Shown here: positions 8,403 through 59,057 of the stretch, in pieces
How the letters are laid out: every line of letters begins with the position of its first letter
How positions within the stretch are numbered: the stretch's first letter is position 1
Origin: Proteromonas lacertae
Taxonomy: Eukaryota
Length of the DNA: 64,000 nucleotides
Direction of reading: 5' to 3'
Assembly (NCBI GenBank): GCA_002245135.1
Contig: NGBS01000876.1
Location: forward strand, 186,001-250,000
Notes under the pieces: generated by a model
The model's database searches: none
What the model saw: the letters and a program-made list of their open reading frames with translations, nothing else
What the model was told of the DNA's origin: nothing
Position numbers and translations under genes: made by a program

Positions 8403-9468
8403 ATGAAGATTCTACCAATGTATAATTAATATAATTATACTGATCTAGATTCATCCTATTAATATCTATATTCTGCACTTATAATGAGAAATTGAGATTC
8501 AGAAAAGATGGTACTTTCTTGATTTCACAAGTATATTATTATAATTTAGAGAATAGATTACTGATTTACATTATGGTGAAGAAGATACTACAGATATGTA
8601 TAATCAATTACTTCAATTGTCAATTCTCAAGTATGAAAATCCAGATTTCACAGCAGTTACAGGAGATTGTGTCTCAGGATGGATGTATGATGGACAAATC
8701 GGATGGTATAAGAAACAATGGGATCAATGGACAAAACCCTATCGAGATCTCAAAGTTCCATATGCTTTAGCTATGGGTAATCATGATGATCAAGCAGATG
8801 CTAACAGAAGTGAAATTCTTTCTTATGAATTAACTCATCCTTATTCAATGTCACAAATAGGTCCAAACGACATTACAGGAATAACCAATTATTATATTCC
8901 AATATACAATTCAAAATTAAGTGAAGAAATCGAATATATCTTATGGTTCTTCGATTCTATGGATCATAATTGTTATAGTGATAAAAGTTGGGGATGTGTT
9001 GGTAATGATACAGTTCAGTGGTATAAAGATGAAAGTGAAAGATTATTAAAGAAATATAAGAGAATTATTCCTGGTATTGCATTTGTACATATTCCTCCAC
9101 CTGAATATTTATACGCTACTTTTAACAACACAATTAATGGAACAAAAGAAGAAGATGTTTGTTGTCCTATCTATAATACTGGTTTGATTGGTGCTATGAT
9201 TGAAATGAAGAATGTTCAAGCAATGTTTGTTGGACATGATCATGATAATGATTATTCTGTTGATGTTGATAAAAAGATAAATTTATATTATGGAAGAAAA
9301 ACTGGATATGGATGTTACGGTCCAGTGTCTGTGCAACATGGAAGTAGAATCATTAGATTGAGTGAAAGAACTCACAGTTATGACACTTGGATTAGAAATG
9401 AAGATGGAACAAAGACTAATTATACTGATCCAAAAGAAGCACCAAAACAAGATACATGTGCTACATAA
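8403..9468 (+). CDS. Secreted calcineurin-like metallophosphoesterase, Dcr2/PAP14-type, copy 1 (2 introns)
   Basis: Signal peptide, LRFRKDGTF..SQ|ITDLHYGE, TGD, GNHD, HIP, GHDH, YGRKTGYG. Confidence 0.9.
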
Positions 9469-9613
9469 TATATATGTGTGTGAATTTAATTTGAATATAT
9501 TATACTTCAATTACTATGAAAGTACATTTTTTGTGTTTGTTTTTATCAAACTTTTTCATCTTTATTTTTCAATTTTCTAGTCAGTTTCATACATATTTCG
9601 GCATTAATTTAGA

Positions 9614-10919
9614 ATGACATTAGTATGGTGTATAGTATTGCTATTTACATGTTTAATATTCCTGTATTTTATTGTTTATTTGAATTTTATTAATTAGTTC
9701 ATACATGTGTCTATATACCACAGCATTAAAATATTCAATATGTAAAAACAATAAATGCAAAAGATTGAAATTTCATGATGATGGTACATTCAAAATCTCA
9801 CATGTATATATTTTGCATAATACTATTTAGCTTACAGATCTGCATTATGGAGAAAAAATAGAACTTGATAATAAAAACGATCAATTCATCACAAATCTCA
9901 TAAACTGGGAAAATCCAGACTTTGTAGCTGTGACAGGTGATGTAGTATCTGGTATAATTATATATTGTATTAACTGAATATAGGAATGGTATGGGATAAA
10001 GTGACAAGACCATTCCTTGAACCAAATTATAGAAAATTCTTAAATACAATGACAAATTCAAAGAAGTTATATGCTGTATCAATTGGTAATCATGATAGTG
10101 ATGGAGATTTAACGAAATTAGAAGTAATACAATTAGATATGACAAATCCTTATTCATTAACTAAAATAGGACCTAAAGATACAACTGGTATTACAAATAT
10201 ATCATTTTATTCACTTTTATATAATTAAATCATTGTTTTTTTTTAATTTTCTGTAATATTATATACCAATCTATAATTCAAAAGAAAGTGAAATTGAATA
10301 TATAATGTGGTTCTTTGGTGTTTCTGATAAAAATAGAACAATCAGTTGGTGGGAATGGATAGGTAATGATACAGTGAAATGGTATGAAAAAGAATCTAAA
10401 AAACTCAAACAAAAATATAATAGAATAATTCCTGGTGTTATATTTGTTCATGTTCCACCAGTTGAGTTTCTGACTACAGTTCATGTATATATATATATAT
10501 ATGATTATTATTGATAGAATAAGGAAATATATGGAATTCAAGGTGAAGATATATGTTGTCCTACACTTGATGCTCATTTATTAGATTCTGTTGTTAGACA
10601 GTATATAATATTTAACTATTAGTATAATTATTATTATAGAGATAATATTCAAGGTATATTTGTTGGTCATGATCATGATAATGACTTTTACTTGAAATAT
10701 AATGACAAAATTAGATTACATTATGATAGAAAGAGTGGGTATGGGTGTTATGGTCCAAAAAATATGAGTGTTGGTAGTACTACTATTATATTGAATAGTA
10801 AATTTCATAATTACACATTTTATGTTAGAGATGATAAAGGTGAGGTAATAACAAACTATAAACCTAGTATAGGTAGGAGAAGTCAGAAAGTATGTCCATT
10901 TCCATGGAAGAAAATTTAA
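9614..10919 (+). CDS. Dcr2/PAP-type metallophosphoesterase, copy 2 (about 6 introns, one AT-AA)
   Basis: LKFHDDGTFKISH|LTDLHYGE, TGD, GNHD, HVPP, GHDHDND across short introns. Confidence 0.85.
10199..10256 (+). other. Candidate U12-type AT-AA intron (58 nt)
   Basis: ATATCATTTT...TTTTTAATTTTCTGTAA. Exact removal gives GITN|YYIPIYNS, matching both paralogs. Confidence 0.7.
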
Positions 10920-11018: not shown

Positions 11019-12259
11019 ATGAAGTATTTAATCTTGTATCACTTTAAGAAATATATCACTAGTATAATATTTATCTCTTCAGTGCTGTGCGCATATAATG
11101 GAGTTTTGAGACTCAATCAAAACAAAGAATTCACAATATCACAAGTAATGTTATAAGTATATATACATTTAATTAGATTACTGATCTACATTATGGAGAA
11201 AGTGTTGAAAATGATACTCTTGCCTCTTCAATACAAAGAAAGATCTTCGAAATAGAACACCCTGATTTGGTAGTATTTACAGGAGATTGTGTATCAGGAA
11301 ATAAATGGAACAATGAAAGTGGATGGTATGAACAGCAATGGAATGAATATATAAAACCAGTGACAGAAATGAAAATACCATATGCACTAGTATTAGGAAA
11401 TCATGATGCAGATGCTGATTTGAATAGACAACAAGTAATGGAATTAGATATGAAAAATCCATATTCAATGAGCAAAATAGGTATAAAAGAGATAACTGGT
11501 GTTTCAAATTATTATATACCAATATACGACAATGTAGGTGATGAAATTGTGTTTATACTATGGTTCTTTGATAGTATGAGTAAAGAATGTTATATAAATG
11601 AAACATGGGGATGTGTAGGTGTAGATACAGGTATATAGATATAAATAATTATTACTATTATTATTATAGTGAATTGGTACAGATGTGAATCAGTCAATCT
11701 ATTTAATACATATCATAGAAACATTCCTGGTTTAGCATTCTTTCATATACCATTACCAGAATATATGGAAGCTGCAAATGTATAAATTGATTTATATATA
11801 TATATTTATGTATGTATGTATATATATAGATAAATGAGATTAATGGTGTTAAAGATGATCCAGTATTATGTCCAAGGTTAAACTCTGGTTTATTCGCAGC
11901 TATGATTGAACAGTATACTTATAATATGTTATGTATTATTTATAGAGAGAATATATTAGCTACATTTTGTGGGCATAGCCATATGAATGATTATAGTGTT
12001 AATTTTAATAACATTACTTTGTATTTTGGTAGAAAAACTGGTATTTCTCCGGAAATACTACAAAAGTATAAATAATCATGATATATTACATAGTTTTAAA
12101 CATGGAAGTAGAATTATAAAGTTAGATGGTAATAAGAAATCATATAGTAGTTATATAAGGAATGAAGATGGAGTAATTGAAAAATATGATTCTTCTCATA
12201 GAATAGATAATATTCAGTTGATATGTCAATTACATGCAAATGATACAGACATTTTCTAA
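11019..12259 (+). CDS. Dcr2/PAP-type metallophosphoesterase, copy 3 (about 6 introns)
   Basis: Signal peptide, SQ|ITDLHYGE, FTGD, GNHD, FHIPLPEY, GHSH, FGRKTG, HGSRII. Confidence 0.87.
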
Positions 12260-13331: not shown

Positions 13332-14882
13332 TTATAATATTGGACAAATTCCAGTTTTTCTTCATGATATATTATGTTAGGTTTTTCATTCGTTTTTTCT
13401 TCTAATTGTTTAAGTAATTTTACTATTTGCTTTTCTTTCTCCTGTTTTCTTTTATATTCTTCATTATACACACTTATTGTCTGTAAATTATTTCTTATTC
13501 CTTCTAATTCTTTTTGTTTCATTTTCATATCTTCTTTTCTTTTTTCATTTGAAATATTCTTTTTTAATAATTCTTCTAATTGGGATTTAATTGTTTCTTT
13601 TATGTGATGTTTTGAATTATATTCTCCCTGAAGTTTTTTCATTACTTTTTTCTAATTCTTCAATACACATTCTATATTCAACATCAAATTCATCACTTCC
13701 TAGTTGGATAGCATTTCTCTTGAAGAGGAAATAAGTGTTTCTATTGATTATAATGTTAGTATATTATACTTCTTTAAATTCAAATATTAGTCTGTTATTA
13801 TGACTTTCAGTAATCATTTCATAAAATATATCAGTTCCTAATTTCTGTTGTTTCAATATATTATCACACATCAAACCAAATATTGATAGTAGCTCTTGTT
13901 TATTCTTAAACTTGGGAATAAGATTCTTTGGATTTAATGAATTGACAAAGTAATGATGAATAATTTCTATAAAACACTCTCTAATAACTTTTTTATCCCC
14001 TTTAAATTCTTCATACTCAACATCTCTCCCTGGATGAGGGAATGGATAAACATGAACAGAATCTGGTCTAAAGTATTCTTTTAATCTTTCAAAATCTTCC
14101 TATTGATGTGAATTAAAAAATTATATTATACATATAAATTGGAATCTGGATTATTCAACATTAGCGATTGATATTGTTTGTATTCTTCTTTCATTTCATT
14201 TATATCACTCTTTGTATATTTTGCATCTCTCACAATAATATCTAAAGATGGTATGTTTTCTTTATCCACAGCTACTGAGTGATTAGCTAAAACTGTTAAG
14301 TTAAGGAGCTCTTTTGGTTTAATATTTCCAGAAATATTAAATATTATATGAGATGATAAAAAGTTTGTTAAAGCAAATAGAACTTGATCCACTCCTCCTT
14401 CTTGGTCTAAAGCATCTAATCCTTGGCTATCTACTAAATAAATAGCCATTTTTTCTCTTGAATTAGATGGATTATCAATGATGAAAGGTCTACATAAAGC
14501 ATGTAATCCTGATGTTACAGAATCATCACCTGAAGCATATCTAAATGAGTTAGCTCCATTTCTATCAAAATGTAAATCTTCAATGCTAAATCCATCAAAA
14601 TCTATGAATATATATATAGCACACAACATAATCATACTCCCATGATTTTCTAACCATAAGAAAACATCGATTAAAACATTAATAAGAAATGATTTACCGA
14701 TTCTAGTCTTTCCAGCAACTGACAGAATGACGACAGGCATGTTATCAGGAATGCTTGATAGCATTTTTTCACAATTGACTTTAACATATTCTAATTTATT
14801 TTTAGTTTTGTCAATTATCTATAAATCATTCATATAAAAGTAATGATCATACTCTAACAACTTCATAGTTGAAGGATGACAT
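13332..14882 (-). CDS. Guanylate-binding protein/atlastin-like large GTPase with coiled-coil tail (4 introns)
   Basis: G1 AGKTRIGKS, DSQG, IVRD, FPHPG. One extra A at the 13355-13359 run yields a C-terminal CPIL*. As assembled the stop is at 13319. Confidence 0.85.
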
Positions 14883-14972: not shown

Positions 14973-15032
14973 TAACATCCAATTATATCACACTTACATA
15001 TATCTACAATCTAAAGATTATTTTCTAAAAAA

Positions 15033-16623
15033 ATGAGCAGCAGTTGTGAGTCTGTGGAAGTATTAATTAATAATTATTGCCAATAATATTGTATAGATTG
15101 TATATTGGGATAAAAAAAAGTTAGACTTAAAGAAAGATAATCTCATTAAGATCACAAGTAGTATTCCTTCTAACCTTCCCATTGCTATATTGAATGTATC
15201 TGGTGAGTTTAGAACAGGTAAATCAACATTATTGAATTTAATCTTCTCAATATTATTGAAATATGAGAAGTGTAGACGTATATTATGATATAATATATTT
15301 TATAGATGTATGTGGCATTCATATAGAAGATTTGAAGCTAGATTGCGGTTGTTTAAACAAAGATCATAAAGATAGTAATGGTTTTGGATGGAGAGCTGGA
15401 AATGAACCATGTACAAAGGGAATTCGAATGTTAAATCGTTATTTTGTAATTCCCAATCCTGCAGATAAGTTAAAGAATATGGCAGTGTTATTAGTTGATA
15501 CTGAAGTATAATATAATTTTTTTAATAAATGAATAGGGATTAGAAGCAAATAATACTACAAACGGAAGTGATGAAGTATTATTTGGTATTTCAAATTTAA
15601 TGAGTTCTTTATTGATATTAAACCAAAAAAGTCATATTGGTAAAAGTGATATAGCAAATCTTCGATTATTAGTAGAGTTTTGTCCTCCAGAAAAAGAAAA
15701 ATGTAATAGTTCATTCTGTGGAATAGAATTATTAATGAGGGATTATAAGTATAACAGTAGAGAGATAAGCAAACAATTGATGCAAATTAGCAAATTTAAA
15801 AAAAGTATATTTGAATCAAAAGAAGAATCTGTAAAGAATGTATAAATTCATAATAATAATATAATGATGATAGAATTTTGAGATTATAAATGCCTCTTAC
15901 AGATATGTTGATATTTTTGGATTGCCACAACCAGGTGAAGGTGTAGACAATGAAGATTTCAAAGGTAATATGGAAAAATTTAGTGATGAATTTAAAGAAT
16001 TAACATTACATTATATATTAGAGTTATTGACAGAAAAATTACATCCAACATTTGGAAATAAGGAAGAGTTTTATTGCTTATGTGAAACATTAAATACATT
16101 TTTAAGTAAAGGAATACCTCAATTAAGTCAAATGCATAGAATTTTCATTGAAAATAAGAATCAAATGATGCTAAACAAAATAATGACAGTATATTTGAAT
16201 TTTATGAATGAATAGGAATTAATCAATCCATTAAAAGAAAAATTTGAAAAGAATATCAATGTGGATCAGTTGATTAGGGAATGTGATATTGTTTCAAGAA
16301 AAGTAGAAGAATATGGAAGTAAATTTGTAGGAACAGAAGAGATGAAAAAAGAGAAAATGGATTATATCTATGGAGAATTAAAATTATTAAGAAAAGAAAG
16401 TGAACATAGAAAATATCACGAAAAACAAATCCAATTATTAGAAGAAGAAAAGAATAAAACTGCTGAAGAAAGAAAAAGAATTGAAGAACAAAGATTAGAA
16501 TGCCAAAAGAATACTGAAAAATTAAATGAAGAAATAGAGAAATTAACTCTAGAAATAAAAAATCGTCCTGCTCCAGTTTATTATATGCATAATCATCATC
16601 ATAGTAGTTGTATTATTCAATAA
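15033..16623 (+). CDS. Guanylate-binding protein/atlastin-like large GTPase, C-terminal CaaX (5 introns)
   Basis: SGEFRTGKS, GFGWRAGNEPCTKGI, DTE|G, LMRD, LPQPG, coiled coil, ends CIIQ*. Confidence 0.88.
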
Positions 16624-19976: not shown

Positions 19977-22900
19977 ATGATGAAATCTTTCTTTTTATTT
20001 CTGTTTCTATTCTGCGTCTGTGAGTGTAGTGTTGTGTATAATCAGACAGTAGAGATATATCAAGATGATTTAGAGAATATGTATACAAATTATGAAGAAT
20101 ATCCAAGTAATGAAATTAAGAACGCAAAAGAGTTTCATGTATATCCTGGAAGAGCATTGATCTCTTTTGAGCTTCTCAATCACAATATATATCTAAGGAA
20201 CTACAAACCTCTTCCAAATCTTAAAGAAGAGAAAAACCTTGGTGCTTACTCTCCTATGTATGGTAAAACATTGTTGATTGGAATATATCGAGCAAAAGAT
20301 AGAAAAGGTACAGGTTGCATGACAGTAGCAATATGTAAGAAATACAGACAGTATGTAGAGTTTGGTGTTAAATTATGGACAGGTAATCAAGTGAGATTAA
20401 ATACAGGAGATGATGAAGGGTATATATCTTCAGTCTGTCTTGATGTTGAAGATAAGTATTATGATGCTTCAAAAACAGGTGCTTTAGAAGCTCAAATAAT
20501 GGCAAAAGCAATAGAAGCAGATGGTGATAAAGCTAGAACATGGGCTACAAGATGGTTTATAACAGATTGGTTCGGTGGAGGTTGGGAAGGTTTAGCTGCG
20601 GTTGGAAGTCCATCTGCAATGACAAATAAAAAAACAAACTATTGGTTGTATACTCAAGATAACTATTATGGTAATGAAGATCCAAATATGGGTAGATTAT
20701 CTACTCTAATGCATGAATATACTCACAATCTAGGATTTAGCCATTCTAATACAGTCGGTGCAAAGCATTCAGGTCAATTCTATCATTTTGTTACAGTTGA
20801 TGGATATGGTGATTGTGGTAGTTATATGGGCAATTGTGCTAGTTGGACAAATCCACCGTGTATGAGTAGTTATAGATTCGTTGCTACAGGTAATAAGCCA
20901 GAACCATGGCAGTTTCCAACTGTTGCAAAAGGTAAACATACTTATCGATTATATGCAATGGATCATCCTTATTCTAGACATTTCTTAGGAACAACAGAAG
21001 CTTATCACAAGCCTGATGAAGTATTTGATGGTTTAGAGTTTAAATACCACTGTTTAGCTTTAGAAATACCAATTAGTAAAGATATGAGTAGTAAATTTGA
21101 TGGAGATAATTATGCTGCTATTAATGTTGAATATAGAATGAATGCTCATGGTCTAAGTGGTGCTAAAACGAATGGTGCAAGAATAACATACGGTGTATCA
21201 CATGTAAGTGGTTTTAAGAAGAATTTGTGTAATGTTTTACAAGCTAATGTTGATCAAATGGGTAGTTGGGAAGATAGTGAATTACCATTTGGAAGTGTAT
21301 ATTATCCTTGGGATATAGATACTGGTACTTTATCATTTCAAATTAAAAAGATTCATAAGAAACCAATGATGGCTTCTATGGAAGAAATGGTAGTTCAAAA
21401 TGATAAGAGAGGATTTAAAGATGCTCCATATCTAGATATTGAAATTAATTACAATCCAGGAGTTAAGCAAAATAGACCAAATGGTAAAGTAACACCATTA
21501 AACATGAAATTCTCTCCATCGTGGTTTAACTGTAAGAAGAAGGATGATACTTATGGATATATATGTCAAAGATCAACATCAACTGGTAGTGGATGGGGTT
21601 ATGTTGAAGATGAATATGAAAGATCAACAGGACCAAGAATCTATACCAATCAATTAAAATATTATCAACCTATTTATGGATTCAAGACATATAATGGAAA
21701 AGCTTCTTTCCTATGGATTGTATGTTATGGTGCTAGTGGAAGAGTTTGTCCCAGAATGGAAATACAAGATGCAAAACTAACAGATTTCACTCTGAAATAC
21801 TATCAATTTGCTACAGTTACGAGAGCTAAGAATGTAGTTAATGCTACTGAAGAAGATTATGGAAAAGGAATTGTACTTTACGGTGAAAATGTTAAAGTTC
21901 CTGAAGGTGGAAGTATATATGCAACTGATTTATATTATGGTGAATATAAATTATCTGTTAAGAATGGTAAATTCTTTGCCATATTACCAAATCTAGATAT
22001 TGAAGGAATAGGAGAATTAGCTGTAGTAATTAAAGACAAATCAGGAACTGTAGTTAGTTATAAACCATTCACAATATATAGAGATACAAACAATGAAAGA
22101 ATTACAGTAACTAAAATAGAAAAGGATATTATAAATGTTGATGGAAATACAACCACAACATCTACAGAAATAACCTATAACATTGGAGTAGCTGCAATTG
22201 ATGCTGGTAGATTTACATCTCCATCAATGGTAATTAAGCAGACAATTAGTGCAGAAAAATGGTTTTATTATCCATTAATGGATTTGGCTTGGAATGATTA
22301 CTTTTATATTGATTTTGGAGGTACAATTCCAAGTGGTTTAACAATGACAATTGAAGTTGATACTGGTAATTATGTGGTAGATTTATTTGAACTGGAAGGT
22401 CATAGTAGTGTGTCTTATAAAATAGGATTATTAGATTTGAATGATAAGATGGGATGTTTATGTGATATATATAAATTCAAATTCAGTAAAACAGTTGAAA
22501 TAGTGAATATAAGGCCAGTTTATGCCAATCCTACAGGTAATCAAATAGCAAAAGTTGACAATAAAACTGACACACTAGAATATGATGGATATAATTATAA
22601 AATATCAACAACAGCAACAGGAGCGAAATTTTCATTTAAATCATTTAGTAGAAATATCGATGGTAAAACATACTCATTTTCAAGTACAGGTGCTTCTTAT
22701 GCTGGTATAAAAATTAAACCAATTCATAGTAGTAGTAGTTCATCTGCAACAACAACCATTCTTATTGTTGTTGCAGTTATAGCTGGTGTATTAGTTATTG
22801 TTGTTGGTTATTGTTATATAAAGAAGAAGAAGATGAGTGGTGGTAGTAGAGCTTATAACAGTTCAAGACCACCAATGATGAATCCTGCGTATAATCCTGC

Positions 22901-23048
22901 TTCTAGACCTCCACCGATGGTATATCCTGGTTATGGTAGAACAATGGCGCCTAGAGCACCATATCCTGGTGCAATGCCTCCAAGAGGAGCATATGGAGCA
23001 ACTATGCCACCTGCAGCAGGAGGATATACTGGAGGTTATAGAAGATAG
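19977..23048 (+). CDS. Intronless membrane-anchored metzincin metalloprotease (peptidase M11/gametolysin-like)
   Basis: Signal peptide, HEYTHNLGFSH zinc motif, YGDCGSYMG Met-turn, TM helix followed by KKKK, Pro/Tyr/Gly-rich cytoplasmic tail. Confidence 0.8.
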   Translation: MMKSFFLFLFLFCVCECSVVYNQTVEIYQDDLENMYTNYEEYPSNEIKNAKEFHVYPGRALISFELLNHNIYLRNYKPLPNLKEEKNLGAYSPMYGKTLLIGIYRAKDRKGTGCMTVAICKKYRQYVEFGVKLWTGNQVRLNTGDDEGYISSVCLDVEDKYYDASKTGALEAQIMAKAIEADGDKARTWATRWFITDWFGGGWEGLAAVGSPSAMTNKKTNYWLYTQDNYYGNEDPNMGRLSTLMHEYTHNLGFSHSNTVGAKHSGQFYHFVTVDGYGDCGSYMGNCASWTNPPCMSSYRFVATGNKPEPWQFPTVAKGKHTYRLYAMDHPYSRHFLGTTEAYHKPDEVFDGLEFKYHCLALEIPISKDMSSKFDGDNYAAINVEYRMNAHGLSGAKTNGARITYGVSHVSGFKKNLCNVLQANVDQMGSWEDSELPFGSVYYPWDIDTGTLSFQIKKIHKKPMMASMEEMVVQNDKRGFKDAPYLDIEINYNPGVKQNRPNGKVTPLNMKFSPSWFNCKKKDDTYGYICQRSTSTGSGWGYVEDEYERSTGPRIYTNQLKYYQPIYGFKTYNGKASFLWIVCYGASGRVCPRMEIQDAKLTDFTLKYYQFATVTRAKNVVNATEEDYGKGIVLYGENVKVPEGGSIYATDLYYGEYKLSVKNGKFFAILPNLDIEGIGELAVVIKDKSGTVVSYKPFTIYRDTNNERITVTKIEKDIINVDGNTTTTSTEITYNIGVAAIDAGRFTSPSMVIKQTISAEKWFYYPLMDLAWNDYFYIDFGGTIPSGLTMTIEVDTGNYVVDLFELEGHSSVSYKIGLLDLNDKMGCLCDIYKFKFSKTVEIVNIRPVYANPTGNQIAKVDNKTDTLEYDGYNYKISTTATGAKFSFKSFSRNIDGKTYSFSSTGASYAGIKIKPIHSSSSSSATTTILIVVAVIAGVLVIVVGYCYIKKKKMSGGSRAYNSSRPPMMNPAYNPASRPPPMVYPGYGRTMAPRAPYPGAMPPRGAYGATMPPAAGGYTGGYRR

Positions 23049-38747: not shown

Positions 38748-39315
38748 CTATGCAAAATGAATTTTTTTGAAGTGACTTGATCAAACAAAAGCTCGAATGA
38801 TTCTAACGGTTAATCAAATGATTTAATTTGAAAATTTGAAATGGACTGAATACTTTTGATGTGAATGATTTTTATAAATGAATACCATGTAGTATATATA
38901 TTCAAAAATGCTTAAAATGGGAATAAAATATGCTAGATCCTCTGTTTACACATTTAGTTAAGAAAGTTATCTAAGGGTATTAACATTGTCATTTAAAATA
39001 AGATTGATAAATGATATTGTATTTAATACAATTTTCGTGTAAGTTATCCAAAAACTTCACATAGATTATAATTATTAAATATTATCTTATAAGATATACT
39101 TACACTTCTGTGAATATTTTCATTTGCTATTTTTTGAAGATTCAAATTATAAATGTTTTCTTTATTTTAATGCTTCTAACTATTGCTATGATCATAATTA
39201 CTTCATTTTTAATGTTTTTGTTCTCATTATGTTCACATTTATAAAGATATTTCAAAAATATCTTGGCTTGAGAAAAGCTCGAAACAGTTTTATATTTTTT
39301 ATTCTTATCTTCATA

Positions 39316-42300
39316 TGAAGTCTGTTACATCGTATTTATTTCACAGAAAAAAGTTACCAGGTATGAACGGATTTATATAGATGATAGAATCTCGTTTTAG
39401 TGCTCAACTGACTGAATTAGTGTCAGGCCCTTTTCTTATACAGGAACATGTTGAAGAAGTATTTTATCTTATTTTTATTGCAGTTTATAAAACGAATCAA
39501 TAACTCAATTCTACCGAACACTTGTCCAGAGTGTATTCAAGAAATTGACTTAATATTAAACTCGCCAAAACATTCAACCACAACTAAAGCTAATGCAATA
39601 GTATATCTTTTTATTTAATTGTTGTAAAATATACAATCTTTAATTGTTTTTACTTTATTTGATCTACTGACATATGGAAGTGAAAAATTTCCGAAGTTCA
39701 ATGGATGAATTCCTAATGAGAACATTAAAAAGAATAATTAAATATCATGAAGATACAGAATTAGAATTGTTATTAAAACCATTAGTGAAAAAATGGGCTA
39801 AAGAATTCATTAATGAAAAATACAAAGAAGGTGTAAAATACTACATAGAACTAGGTGATAAATTATTCACTAGAGGATTAATAGAAATGAATTCAGCAGA
39901 TTCAGCTCAAAGTAATTTTGCTCATAGAATAGTCTCAATGGAATCACTAAACAATGTAAATGGATATGCCAGTGTAGTAATTCGTCCAAATAAAGAAATA
40001 GATAGAGTAAAAGAAGAAGAAGAAACAACCAGCAATAGAAGAGATTCAATAGATGTTGTAATGACAAAGAAAGAAGAGAGTAAGCCAAGTGTAGTTGGAT
40101 TAGATTTAGAAACATTGAATGATAAGTGTGTAAAAGTATTAAAAGAAGCAAAAGAAGTGAATCAAACTGGAAAAGGTGTAGAAAAATGTTTAAAGAAATT
40201 AATAAAATTAAAATCATTGATTGAAGCTACTTTAGATTCACAGAAAGATATTGATATTAGTAAAAGAGAATGGTTTCAAGGTGTGGAAACTAAAATGTCT
40301 AAAGTGATCGAAAGATTTAATGAATTATCAAATGAATCAAAAGAAAGTGATGAAAGTGAAAATGGTGAGAGTGATACAGATAATGAGATTGAACATATAA
40401 GTGTAGTGAAAAAAAATTCAAAGAAACATATAAAACAAGTAGAAGAAGAAGAAGAAGAATATGAAAAAGAAGTGGAAGATGAAAAACCAAGAAAGAAATC
40501 AATATCTAACAGACATCTCCATTCAAAAGAGGAGAATGAAGAAAATAGTGAGAATAAACATCGAAAACATTCAAGTAGACATTTGAAAGAGGATAAACAA
40601 CAAAATGAAAAAGATGTGGAAGAAGGATTGAGAAAGAAATCATTATCAAATAAACACCTTCATTCAAAAGAAAGTAATGAAGAAGTTAATGAAAATAAAG
40701 GTAGAAAGCATTCAAATCTACATTTGAACCAAGGACAACAACAACAATTAGAAACAAAAGTGGAAAAAGAAAAAGAGAAAAATCATAAGCATCATCATAA
40801 AGAGCAGAAGAAAGAAGAAAAAGAAAAAGAGGAAGATAATGATGATGAAGAAAAAGAATCAAAATTACCACCTCCTCCATCTACTCTTCATATAGTTACA
40901 TCTCCTCCTCCAGACCAAACAAATCAAAAAAGACAAAGAACTGCTTCCTTACCATCACCATCTTATGATTCATCTAAACCATCAACAAATGTTTTTAATT
41001 ATAATAACAATCAAAGAAATATGGATTTAACCAAATCAATAAGTGATGTTTCAATTTCATCTCATAATCTTAATCTCTCATCTAGACAACTAAGTAAATC
41101 AACATCACATTTAGGATCTAAAACAAGTGGTAAACCTCCATTAAGTCCTGCTAGTTTGAAAAGAAAAGAAATGCAACAGCTAATATCACCAGTAGGAGGA
41201 AGAAATACATCAATTCCTCAACAAAGACAATTTTCACCTACTAATCCATTTTTAAATCCTGAAATTGTTAATAATACAAGACATCAAAGATCTAATTCTG
41301 ATCAAATATTTAACTCTATTTCTGGAATAACTAATCCATTCTTAAAACCTCCGCCACCACCTGCTCCAAAGATTCCTAACTTTAATAATCCATTGAAAGT
41401 ATATCTAGATACACCATCAGGGAAATTAGAGCCAATTGAAGAAAGAGAGTATATTAATTTACTGTTTATTGTTTTTAATATAGTTCAAATTGGGATTTAG
41501 GAAATAATGATTTAGATATTAAAGATATTGTATATATGAATGTTTATAGTTTATATTTCATAGTTGCAAAAGAAAGAAAATGATACTGCAAACCCATTCT
41601 TAGGTTCAACAACTCCAAAGAAAGAGAATTTATCATCAAGACATATCACAGGTAAAAATCCGTTTGAAAGTCCAACAATAGTTGAAGAAGAAGTAGAACA
41701 ACCACAACAAAAACCAGTAACAGCACCATCACAAGTAACAAATCCATTCATAAAATTACAGAAAGAATCAAGTGATTCGTCAGTACCGAAGAATCCATTT
41801 CAAGGGATATCAGATGCAAATCCATTTAGTAATACAAGAACTCGAAGTAACTCAATGCCTGTTGATTCATCATCCACCAATTTGTTTACCAATCCTTATT
41901 TCATGAGTCAAACTACAACCTTTAATAATTCATCTCCATCAAATATATTTACTCAAAAACAACAACCTGCAACAGAAAGTAGAAAAAGATTTAGTACAAA
42001 TCCATTTGATATGGTTGATGATGAAGATGTAATAAGAGCAGCAAATGAAGATTTCACACCTGTAGCTGATGAATTGGATAAAGAAAAAGAATTACCAGAT
42101 CATCAAGAAACAGTAGAAGAAAAACCAGAAGATGAAGTGGTAGAAAAACCAGAATCTAATTCTGATTTATTTGCTTCAATGTTTGCTTTCAATCCAGAAC
42201 CACCACCACAACAACAATCATCTGAAGAAGGTGAAGAGAAAAAAGAATCAAATTCTGATTTGTTTGCATCTATGTTTGATTCTATTGAGTCAAAACCAGA

Positions 42301-43513: not shown

Positions 43514-44588
43514 TTTTGTTAATATCTAAGAAAAGTGTGAATAAAAGGCGGTTAAAAATAATACACTCAATACACACAAATTCGAATGAAGCAATTTTAT
43601 TGGCTAAACTTAAAAAAGTGGGGTTTTGATCTTTCAATTCTATTTTGCACTATAATCACGCTTTATTTTTCAATTTGTTTTATATTACATTTATCGATAA
43701 CAGTAATTTGCATACATCGATTTATCATATTTAGTGGTTCATTAAGTTTTATAGGGAAGCTTTATTAGACTTAAATCAAATATTGCGGCTCATGAATAAC
43801 CGTTTAAATTTCATAATAAAAAAAGTAGAGTTTATTAGGCAATATGGATTAGTTACATATTGATACTATATGTAGCTAATGTATGACATGTATACTATAG
43901 AATCAAATATTTGTTTGTCCCAAAATCTAACATGAACATGGTGAAAATAGAATAAAAAAGAAGGAGATTAGAAATTTTATTAATCATTTTTTTTATGTAA
44001 AAGAGAAAGAAATAAGAAGTTATACTTCTAAGACATATTAGTTTATAGCTGACTAAGTAAATGCCCATATTACATACAAGAGATCATGAGTTTTTGACTT
44101 AATCATCGGAATAATCATATCACTGTCTTATATTTATGACTTGTAAAATATAAAATTTGAATTTACATATAGTCATAAATCCTATATACAGAGTTAATAT
44201 ATAAATATATAGATAATTTATAAAATCATGATTCAACACAAAAACCATATAACTCTTACTATATATCTATAGTGTCTTTTTCTATATAATGCAGTATTCT
44301 TCATACTCATATCTTTGACAAAAATATGATCATATGCTTATTACCTTAATCCAATTACATTTATTCTGCATTTACATTTTATGTATATCCTATTTCATAT
44401 TGAAATCATTCTTATACCAATTATGAAAATCACTTATATACTATATTTTATCTATAATATTGTTTTTATATATTCAATAATTATCTTGAAATGAAGAAGA
44501 TATTGACGATTTTATATTTTTGATCCAAAATTTTCACTCAACGTTTTGATACACCAATTCTTTAAATCATGAATAATTATTTTAATTA

Positions 44589-57574: not shown

Positions 57575-58911
57575 TTACTCTTCATCGTCTTCATTATCTT
57601 CTTCTTCTCCATTCCCTTCTTCTAAAGCCTTTTCTCTAGCAATTCTTCTTTCTTCTGAAATTCTTTTCATCTCTTCCTTCTCTTCTTTTGTAAATTCAAT
57701 ATCATCTAATGATTTCAAAGTAGATAAAGTAATATAAACCTCTTGTCTATAATTATCAATACCACAAATAGGACTATTTGCTAGGGACAACTTCTTTAGA
57801 GTAGCTAAAGCAGTTAAACATTGAATTTGTGAACATTCTTCAATTCCACTATATTCCAACTGTAGATTCTCTAATAATTCCAAACTAGTTAAACCAGTAA
57901 TATCAGATAAATCTCTATTTAATATATATATATATCAATAATAATACTGATTTCCACTTAATGATAATGTTGTTAAGACTGTAAGGTTTTCTATATCTGG
58001 TAATTTAGTTATTTGATTATCTTCTAAATTTAAACTCACTAATTCAGTCATTAAACCGCATTTCTTTGTAGATGTCAGTTTATTATGAGAAATTGATGCT
58101 TTTTTTAGATTTGGGAATTTATCTAAACCATCTAAATCTTTTAATAAATTATCTACAGAAATATATATATAAACAATTAATTGTATATGTATACAATCTA
58201 AATATAGTGTTTCCAATGTTTCTGAACCAGTTTTCTTTAAATTGGCCAATCGATTATGAGAGACATCCAAAACTTGAAAATGGGTTTGAGGGAAGTTTGG
58301 TAAAGATTCTAATACGTTATATGATGCATTTAAATATAACAAATTATCAACATGACTTACTCCTTTTATTTCTTTGAAATGATTTCTACTGAAATTGATA
58401 TATGTTAATGATGGGTATTTTTGCATAAATTTACCTAATGAAGATACTCCTTGCTTCTATTCATTTATCATATAATAAGATCAATAAATACAGATAAATC
58501 TAATTTAGTATAAGCCCATCCTTCTCCTGATATTGTTTTGTTTAAATCACCTAAACCTTCTGCTAATGTGTCTATATTTAATGCATTATTATCACTCCAC
58601 ATATATCCTTCATTTGGATCTTCTTCTTCATCTTCCTCTTCATCCCCAGATTGAGCATTTTCATTCTCTTTCTCTTCACCTTCTCCATTACCTTCTATAT
58701 TTGCTCCATTCTCTACATTTTCACCAGTAGGCTGTGCATCATTATTTTCATTTGATCCATTATTTTCATTATTATCTATGGTTGTATTTTGATCTATTGC
58801 TTCTTCTGGACCTTTTAGTTGTTCTTCATCACCTTGTGGCATTTCTTGTTGATTTTCATTTGGTGGCTCAGTGTTATTTATGTCATCTGGATTATTATTA
58901 TCTTGATCCAT
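57575..58911 (-). CDS. SDS22-like LRR protein, LRRC23/LRGUK-like (ciliary radial-spoke type)
   Basis: Acidic N-terminus, GLGDLNKTISGEGWAYTKLDLS, LRR units, LRRcap YRQEV...LKSLDD. Confidence 0.75.
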
Positions 58912-59057
58912 TATCTCCTTCCTATCAAAAAAATAAAAACGTTTCTTTTACGTCAAAACGTCAAAAAGTGTCAAAATTACATTAATTCTATTTTCTTCAA
59001 ATTCTAATCAACTCATAACCTCATATATAATTATTAATATTTTTTCAAATAAATAAA

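What the first reader, a model, noticed from the sequence alone, without database searches (positions are those of the whole stretch)
10199..10256. AT-AA minor-spliceosome-type intron present in only one of three tandem paralogs
Seen: a 58-nt insert ATATCATTTT...TTTTTAAT-TTTCTGTAA interrupts copy 2. Exact removal restores GITN|YYIPIYNS, which is uninterrupted in copy 1 (GITNYYIPIYNS) and copy 3 (GVSNYYIPIYDN). The nearest GT-AG alternative would delete this conserved strand. The 5' end is one mismatch from the U12 consensus ATATCCTT, the length is about twice the local U2 mode, and a TTTAAT branch-like site lies 9 nt before the end, the same spacing as the AT-AC intron at 39603. Known: AT-AA is a rare U12 subtype and de novo U12 intron gain is considered very rare. 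Inference: either a recent U12 gain after duplication or independent loss in two paralogs.
Basis: partly seen in the sequence, partly recalled or inferred. Interest (0 to 1): 0.85.

Follow-up and report, generated by a model that had tools for sequence, protein, structure and literature searches.

The report
Ancient AT-AA minor intron, twice lost
A 58-base insert with rare AT and AA ends interrupts one of three neighbouring phosphoesterase genes of a protist and sits at the same spot in related species and in distant members of the gene family, so it is likely an old intron of the rare "minor" splicing system that the two sister genes likely lost, not a new gain.

Summary
The insert is real (10199-10256, 58 nt, phase 0). 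Removing it restores the reading frame and the strand found unbroken in copies 1 and 3. The splice motifs alone are at chance level in this AT-rich window; conservation is the evidence.

Protein fragments from unnamed public assemblies read into the intron at the same codon in 14 of 14 copy-2 orthologues (65-73% identical). Two long read-throughs fix an AA end and a 56-nt length, so the AA is not a sequencing error. A family member only 31-36% identical has a 50-nt AT-AC intron at the same codon (14 of 14 members), as does a third group by its 5' end (2 of 2). A tree weakly rejects one intron-bearing clade (AU p = 0.035). Copy 1 has also lost 4 of 5 ancestral GT-AG introns.

Best reading: an old U12-type intron, AC changed to AA in copy 2, lost from copies 1 and 3. 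Recent gain is not supported. No RNA and no minor snRNA could be examined. The host is likely a Blastocystis relative. The scan noted AT-AC introns in two other protist genomes, not this one.

The parts
10199..10256 (+). 58-nt phase-0 AT-AA intron, predicted U12-type
   Evidence: conserved in relatives
10199..10207 (+).
   Evidence: read-through ISF in 14 of 14 orthologues fits positions +1,+2,+4,+5,+7,+8
10242..10247 (+). branch-point-like TTTAAT, A's 11 and 10 nt from the 3' end
   Evidence: same motif decoded in relatives
10255..10256 (+). AA 3' terminus
   Evidence: AA forced by read-through in P0138 and P0146 and by a two-frame check with P0134
9705..10919 (+). copy 2, calcineurin-like metallophosphoesterase (start codon uncertain); other GT-AG introns 9804-9830, 9952-9983, 10485-10517, 10601-10639
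   Evidence: 341 aa, no internal stop, five metal-binding motifs present
8403..9468 (+). copy 1; introns only at 8420-8448 and 8531-8556; no intron at the site
   Evidence: (PF00149)
11019..12259 (+). copy 3; GT-AG introns 11145-11176, 11631-11669, 11780-11829, 11913-11945, 12066-12093; no intron at the site
   Evidence: (PF00149)
39603..39653 (+). candidate 51-nt AT-AC intron in another gene, same 9-nt spacing
   Evidence: not independently verified

Best explanation
The insert is likely a working U12-type intron, predicted to be removed by the minor spliceosome, that likely predates the three-gene tandem array, likely changed its end from AC to AA in the copy-2 line and was likely deleted from copies 1 and 3. 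Shown: the insert, exact frame restoration, and (decoded from read-through peptides) the same position and signals in relatives. Inferred from established U12 mechanics: U11 and later U6atac pair with the 5' signal, U12 pairs with the TTTAAT branch site, and the 3' end is chosen by distance from the branch point, which tolerates AA in place of AC. Inferred: exact loss through recombination with spliced cDNA, 3'-biased and nearly complete in copy 1.
For: 14 of 14 members of three copy-2-orthologue clusters end their ORF with N then ISF at the intron codon while the rest of the intron differs. Its relative P0318 also shows ISF. The P0157 cluster (31-43%) shows ISF in 2 of 2. Trees keep copies 1-3 together (100/99; 99; 90/73) and place P0227, P0157 and P0206 outside; 0 of 200 bootstrap trees make the intron-bearing rows one clade, AU p = 0.035. 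All 5 GT-AG introns of the Blastocystis-like locus L004 match paralogue introns in column and phase; copy 1 keeps 1 of 5, copies 2 and 3 keep 4 of 5 each, so loss is common here. Literature: AT-AA is the commonest non-canonical minor subtype in animals and plants (PMC10639083); AT-AA/AT-AC switching between orthologues is recorded for MSH3 (PMC1557818 Table 3); U12 loss far outstrips gain (PMC2831892); optimum branch distance 11-13 nt (PMC3584512).
Against: No transcript and no minor snRNA were seen for this organism; Rfam finds nothing in the window, which is only 64 kb. The motifs alone do not beat chance. Relatives' introns are decoded from peptides, not read as DNA. The outgroup L004 and its two near-copies lack the intron, so at least three losses are needed. 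The AU rejection is marginal, rests on fragments filling 21-32% of columns, and P0227 is a long branch. The organisms behind P0227, P0157 and P0206 are unknown, so the age is relative (older than the array), not absolute. The search profile held four ISF-ending rows of nine, which may favour such hits.
Confidence: 0.75

Rival explanations
1. The intron is real and old but was gained once inside this protist lineage, in an early paralogue or the stem gene, and copy 2 inherited it or received it from a paralogue by gene conversion.
For: Every carrier is an unnamed AT-rich fragment that may come from the same group of organisms. No named outside eukaryote could be shown to carry it. It is phase 0, and PMC10639083 suggests that Blastocystis minor introns, 49% phase 0, may be recent gains. 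Starred branches alone do not force more than one origin.
Against: Carriers are 31-43% identical to the three copies and are not one clade in any of 200 bootstrap trees; gene conversion at that distance is unlikely except very long ago (inference).
Confidence: 0.15
2. De novo U12 gain in copy 2 after the tandem duplication.
For: Absent from copies 1 and 3, from their orthologues (12 of 12 that span the junction, and 7 of 7) and from L004. Copy 3 has a private GT-AG intron, so gain may occur in this array.
Against: Needs independent U12 gains at the same codon in at least two other, distant family members, one with the canonical AC end.
Confidence: 0.04
3. Not U12-spliced: copy 2 is broken here, or the insert is removed by the major spliceosome or at another 3' end (AT-AT, 61 nt), or the AA is an error for AC.
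For: No RNA evidence; 5' signal differs from consensus at +6; copy 2 is on a long branch; the AT-AT excision keeps the frame.
Against: Both flanking exons stay conserved in the spliced frame across species, both Tyr codons are kept, AA is shared by independent assemblies of other species, and all five metal motifs are intact.
Confidence: 0.06

Closest known systems
Non-canonical AT-AA U12-type introns of animals and plants (PMC10639083; PMC1557818 Tables 2-3, e.g. MSH3 AT-AA in human, AT-AC in mouse)
   Same: AT start, AA end, U12-like 5' signal, branch motif about 11 nt from the end, AC/AA switching at one position
   Different: Found in a protist; very short (56-58 nt); 5' signal has A at +6; the switch is between deep paralogues; no transcript support here
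U12-type introns of Blastocystis ST1 (PMC5608401: 346 introns, all four snRNAs; PMC10639083: 253 introns, 77% AT-AC, 49% phase 0, median 39 nt)
   Same: Short, AT-started, phase 0, longer than the local GT-AG introns; host gene shares 5 of 5 intron positions with a Blastocystis-like gene
   Different: AA end; host appears to lie outside the human and tortoise Blastocystis clade; the Blastocystis-like homologue L004 lacks this intron
U12 intron loss by deletion or retro-type events (PMC2831892)
   Same: Loss exceeds gain; loss accompanies loss of other introns in copy 1
   Different: Here seen among tandem paralogues of one locus

Membership tests
U12-type intron | Extended conserved 5' splice signal | tested here: met
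U12-type intron | Conserved branch sequence about 11-13 nt from the 3' end | tested here: met
   TTTAAT with A's 11 and 10 nt from the end; TTTAAT decoded in both relative groups; only the core matches and the motif is common in AT-rich DNA
U12-type intron | No polypyrimidine tract between branch site and 3' end | tested here: inconclusive
   Only 9 nt follow the motif, T-rich; the whole intron is T-rich
U12-type intron | Excised from the mRNA at these ends | not testable with these tools
   No RNA run could be laid; support is indirect, from frame and exon conservation
U12-type intron | Host has U11, U12, U4atac, U6atac and splicing depends on them | not testable with these tools
   No whole genome held; none in the window; present in Blastocystis ST1 and ST7 (PMC5608401)
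De novo gained U12 intron | Absent at the position in outgroup genes | tested here: not met
   Present in the P0227, P0318 and P0157 groups outside the three-copy clade; absent in L004
Calcineurin-like metallophosphoesterase (PF00149) | Pfam match and five metal-binding motifs | tested here: met
   Copies 1 and 3 pass the cut-off; the two single exons of copy 2 scanned gave no hit; motifs present in all three spliced copies

The most novel reading that the evidence does not exclude
The intron was created inside the Blastocystis-related lineage, before its phosphoesterase paralogues split, as part of a lineage-specific wave of phase-0 minor-intron gain; one codon then records all later fates (AT-AC, AT-AA, conversion to a GT intron, loss). 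This would be rare support for minor-intron gain outside Physarum and would document minor splicing in a Blastocystis relative where I found no report of it.
Probability: 0.2. Interest if true: 0.6.

Novelty: new member of a known kind. Interest (0 to 1): 0.32.

Why it matters
It adds an AT-AA minor intron conserved across species, and indirect evidence of minor splicing, in a protist that appears to be a sister of Blastocystis. It bears on an open point in PMC10639083, whether the phase-0-rich minor introns of this lineage are recent gains: this phase-0 intron is older than a deep paralogue split and is missing from the Blastocystis-like gene examined. That is one case only. The three tandem copies give a compact natural series of intron loss.

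Tried and rejected
No whole genome is held. The look-up of sequencing runs: none was listed, no RNA holder listed; this is no evidence either way. Rfam at gathering score: 0 matches in the window. DNA of copy-2 orthologues was not found in genome contigs (1 locus, an 11-residue match in a planctomycete) or viral contigs (0 of 35 stretches); the metagenome scan gave 19 loci, none a close relative (best 47-48%). The motif scan as proof was rejected because it is at chance level. A GT intron at the same codon in the P0206 cluster is only suggested: 4 of 4 tails start with V and differ from one another, but decoding of the 3' end gave no clear best. Host identity: atlas searches gave only generic families; an LRRC23-like flagellar gene was inconclusive, generic LRRs scoring higher. 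No solved structure matched copy 1. Literature: 'Proteromonas' + 'spliceosome' gave 0 papers; 'purple acid phosphatase' + 'U12' gave 3 papers, unrelated by title and abstract start. Candidate 44309-44358 was set aside as lying in no evident gene. In one search, 179 of 290 proteins held had the junction aligned: 16 IS[FL], 1 V-start, 144 continuous, 18 other; many are bacterial, spliced or redundant, so the continuous rows are not counts of intron absence.

Full report
Observation. The window holds three tandem calcineurin-like phosphoesterase genes (PF00149 for copies 1 and 3) at 8403-9468, 9705-10919 and 11019-12259, 38-49% identical to each other. Copy 2 is interrupted at 10199-10256 by 58 nt that begin ATATCATTT and end AA. 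Removing exactly these bases, with four ordinary GT-AG introns, gives a stop-free 341-aa protein with all five metal-binding motifs. Keeping them gives a stop after 9 residues. The only in-frame GT-AG alternative in the range tested deletes 13 conserved residues; an AT-AT end three bases later keeps the frame but drops a Tyr. A TTTAAT motif ends 9 nt before the 3' end. The insert is 1.8 times the median GT-AG intron of the array (32 nt, n = 11). The motifs alone prove little: a window-wide scan gives 16 hits against 17.6 in shuffles, and 1 against 0.57 under the strictest setting.

Host. No genome or sequencing run was available. The window is 27.2% GC. Its genes share all 5 intron positions, in column and phase, with locus L004. 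L004 has 41% GC, 30-32-nt introns and TGTTTGTT after the stop, features described for Blastocystis (PMC5608401, passages), and it groups with named Blastocystis proteins. The three window copies form their own clade, sister to the Blastocystis clade in the quick tree (94) and unresolved in the careful one. GC matches the 27.0% tabulated for Proteromonas lacertae rather than 21-23% for tortoise or 39-55% for human Blastocystis (PMC12129017 and PMC10690189, passages). A Blastocystis relative, possibly Proteromonas-like, is therefore inferred, not shown.

Conservation in orthologues. Gene callers that ignore introns read into them, so protein fragments report intron positions. The exon before the insert found three clusters at 69-73% identity. 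All 14 members end with N then ISF at the intron codon, followed by tails that differ between clusters. ISF is what ATATCnTTy encodes; a random AT-rich 9-mer gives it about once in 1000, though cluster members are not independent. P0138 and P0146 read through the whole intron. Combining P0138 with P0134, which reads the same end in another frame, also forces TTTAAT and AA. The AA end is therefore shared by other species and is not an assembly error. Orthologues of copy 1 (12 of 12 that span the junction; one fragment does not) and copy 3 (7 of 7) are continuous there.

Age. A profile search of 1.84 billion representatives brought two further groups with ISF at the same codon that are not copy-2 orthologues. 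Its relative P0318 also shows ISF; P0319, the third hit of that search, ends before the junction. The P0157 cluster shows ISF in 2 of 2, with its 3' end unknown. The P0206 cluster has V-starting, variable tails in 4 of 4, hinting at a GT intron at the site, but the decode was inconclusive. These rows fall outside the clade of copies 1-3. None of 200 bootstrap trees makes the intron-bearing rows one clade and the AU test gives p = 0.035 (24 of 47 aligned rows used, the rest left out for run time). This is a weak rejection on short fragments with one long branch, and the organisms are unknown.

Loss. Against L004, copy 1 keeps 1 of 5 ancestral introns, the 5'-most; copies 2 and 3 keep 4 of 5 each. 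Absence from copy 1 thus says little, and single exact losses occur in the other two. L004 itself lacks the minor intron; PMC10639083 reports 11 of 12 alignable minor introns lost between two Blastocystis genomes (passages).

Mechanism. Most likely the minor spliceosome removes the insert. The 5' signal and branch site define U12 introns, the branch-to-end distance (optimum 11-13 nt) helps set the 3' end, and non-canonical ends are spliced, often less efficiently (PMC3584512, passages). Pairing with U11, U12 and U6atac is established knowledge, untested here. The canonical AC in the distant group suggests AC was ancestral and changed to AA in the copy-2 line; the direction is inferred. Loss by recombination with spliced cDNA is inferred from the exact deletions and the 3' bias in copy 1.

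Comparison. AT-AA is the commonest non-canonical minor subtype in animals and plants (PMC10639083). AT-AA/AT-AC switches between orthologues are tabulated (PMC1557818, Tables 2-3). Loss far exceeds gain (PMC2831892, passages). Blastocystis ST1 has hundreds of short minor introns and all four snRNAs (PMC5608401, section 8 and one supplementary table; 21 of its 33 supplementary files were not fetched and 9 held no text, and they may list AT-AA cases). One search for Proteromonas with spliceosome found no paper; subscription papers are not covered.

Verdict. Observation confirmed. It is a new member of a known kind: very likely a real AT-AA minor intron, old and lost from two paralogues. Recent gain is not supported; an old gain inside this lineage is not excluded. 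Interest 0.32.

Noticed in passing
window 8403-9468: Copy 1 lacks four ancestral introns, all 3' of the first shared one; its orthologues (P0001, P0002) are also long unbroken ORFs, so the loss predates the species split.
   Followed up: yes
window 11631-11669: GT-AG intron private to copy 3 among the four genes compared; the ORFs of 7 copy-3 orthologues break at the same place, so it is conserved in relatives. Gain or retention not determined.
   Followed up: partly
window 10305-10330 and 11970-11985: Copy 2 has FFG where copies 1 and 3 have FFD, and is on a long branch; copy 3 has GHSH for the usual GHDH motif. Possible change of substrate.
   Followed up: no
window 39315-41500: Gene with a candidate AT-AC intron (39603-39653, 5' signal with T at +6) and a 25-nt GT-AG intron (39696-39720) that together give a 685-aa ORF; suggests +6 of the minor 5' signal is relaxed in this organism.
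   Followed up: partly
window 44309-44358: AT-AC-like stretch with a good branch-like motif but in no evident gene; within chance expectation.
   Followed up: partly
window 57575-58947 (-): LRR protein with an acidic N-terminus that resembles axonemal LRRC23 (recalled); PDB search lists LRRC23 at 1e-9 but generic LRRs score higher. If true the host is flagellated and so not Blastocystis.
   Followed up: partly
window 13764-14818 (-) and about 15030-16623 (+): Guanylate-binding-protein family gene (PF02263) head to head with a similar-looking gene; the second was not tested.
   Followed up: partly
window 19977-23048 (+): Intronless 1023-aa ORF with a zinc-metallopeptidase-like motif (weak reprolysin hit, E 0.007) and a C-terminal membrane-like segment, unusual in an intron-rich genome.
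   Followed up: partly
window 9534-9541: TGTTTGTT, the Blastocystis polyadenylation-linked motif, 66 nt after the stop of copy 1; may be chance in AT-rich DNA.
   Followed up: no
proteins P0206, P0315-P0317: ORFs break at the same codon with V-starting tails, a possible U12-to-U2 conversion at this position.
   Followed up: partly
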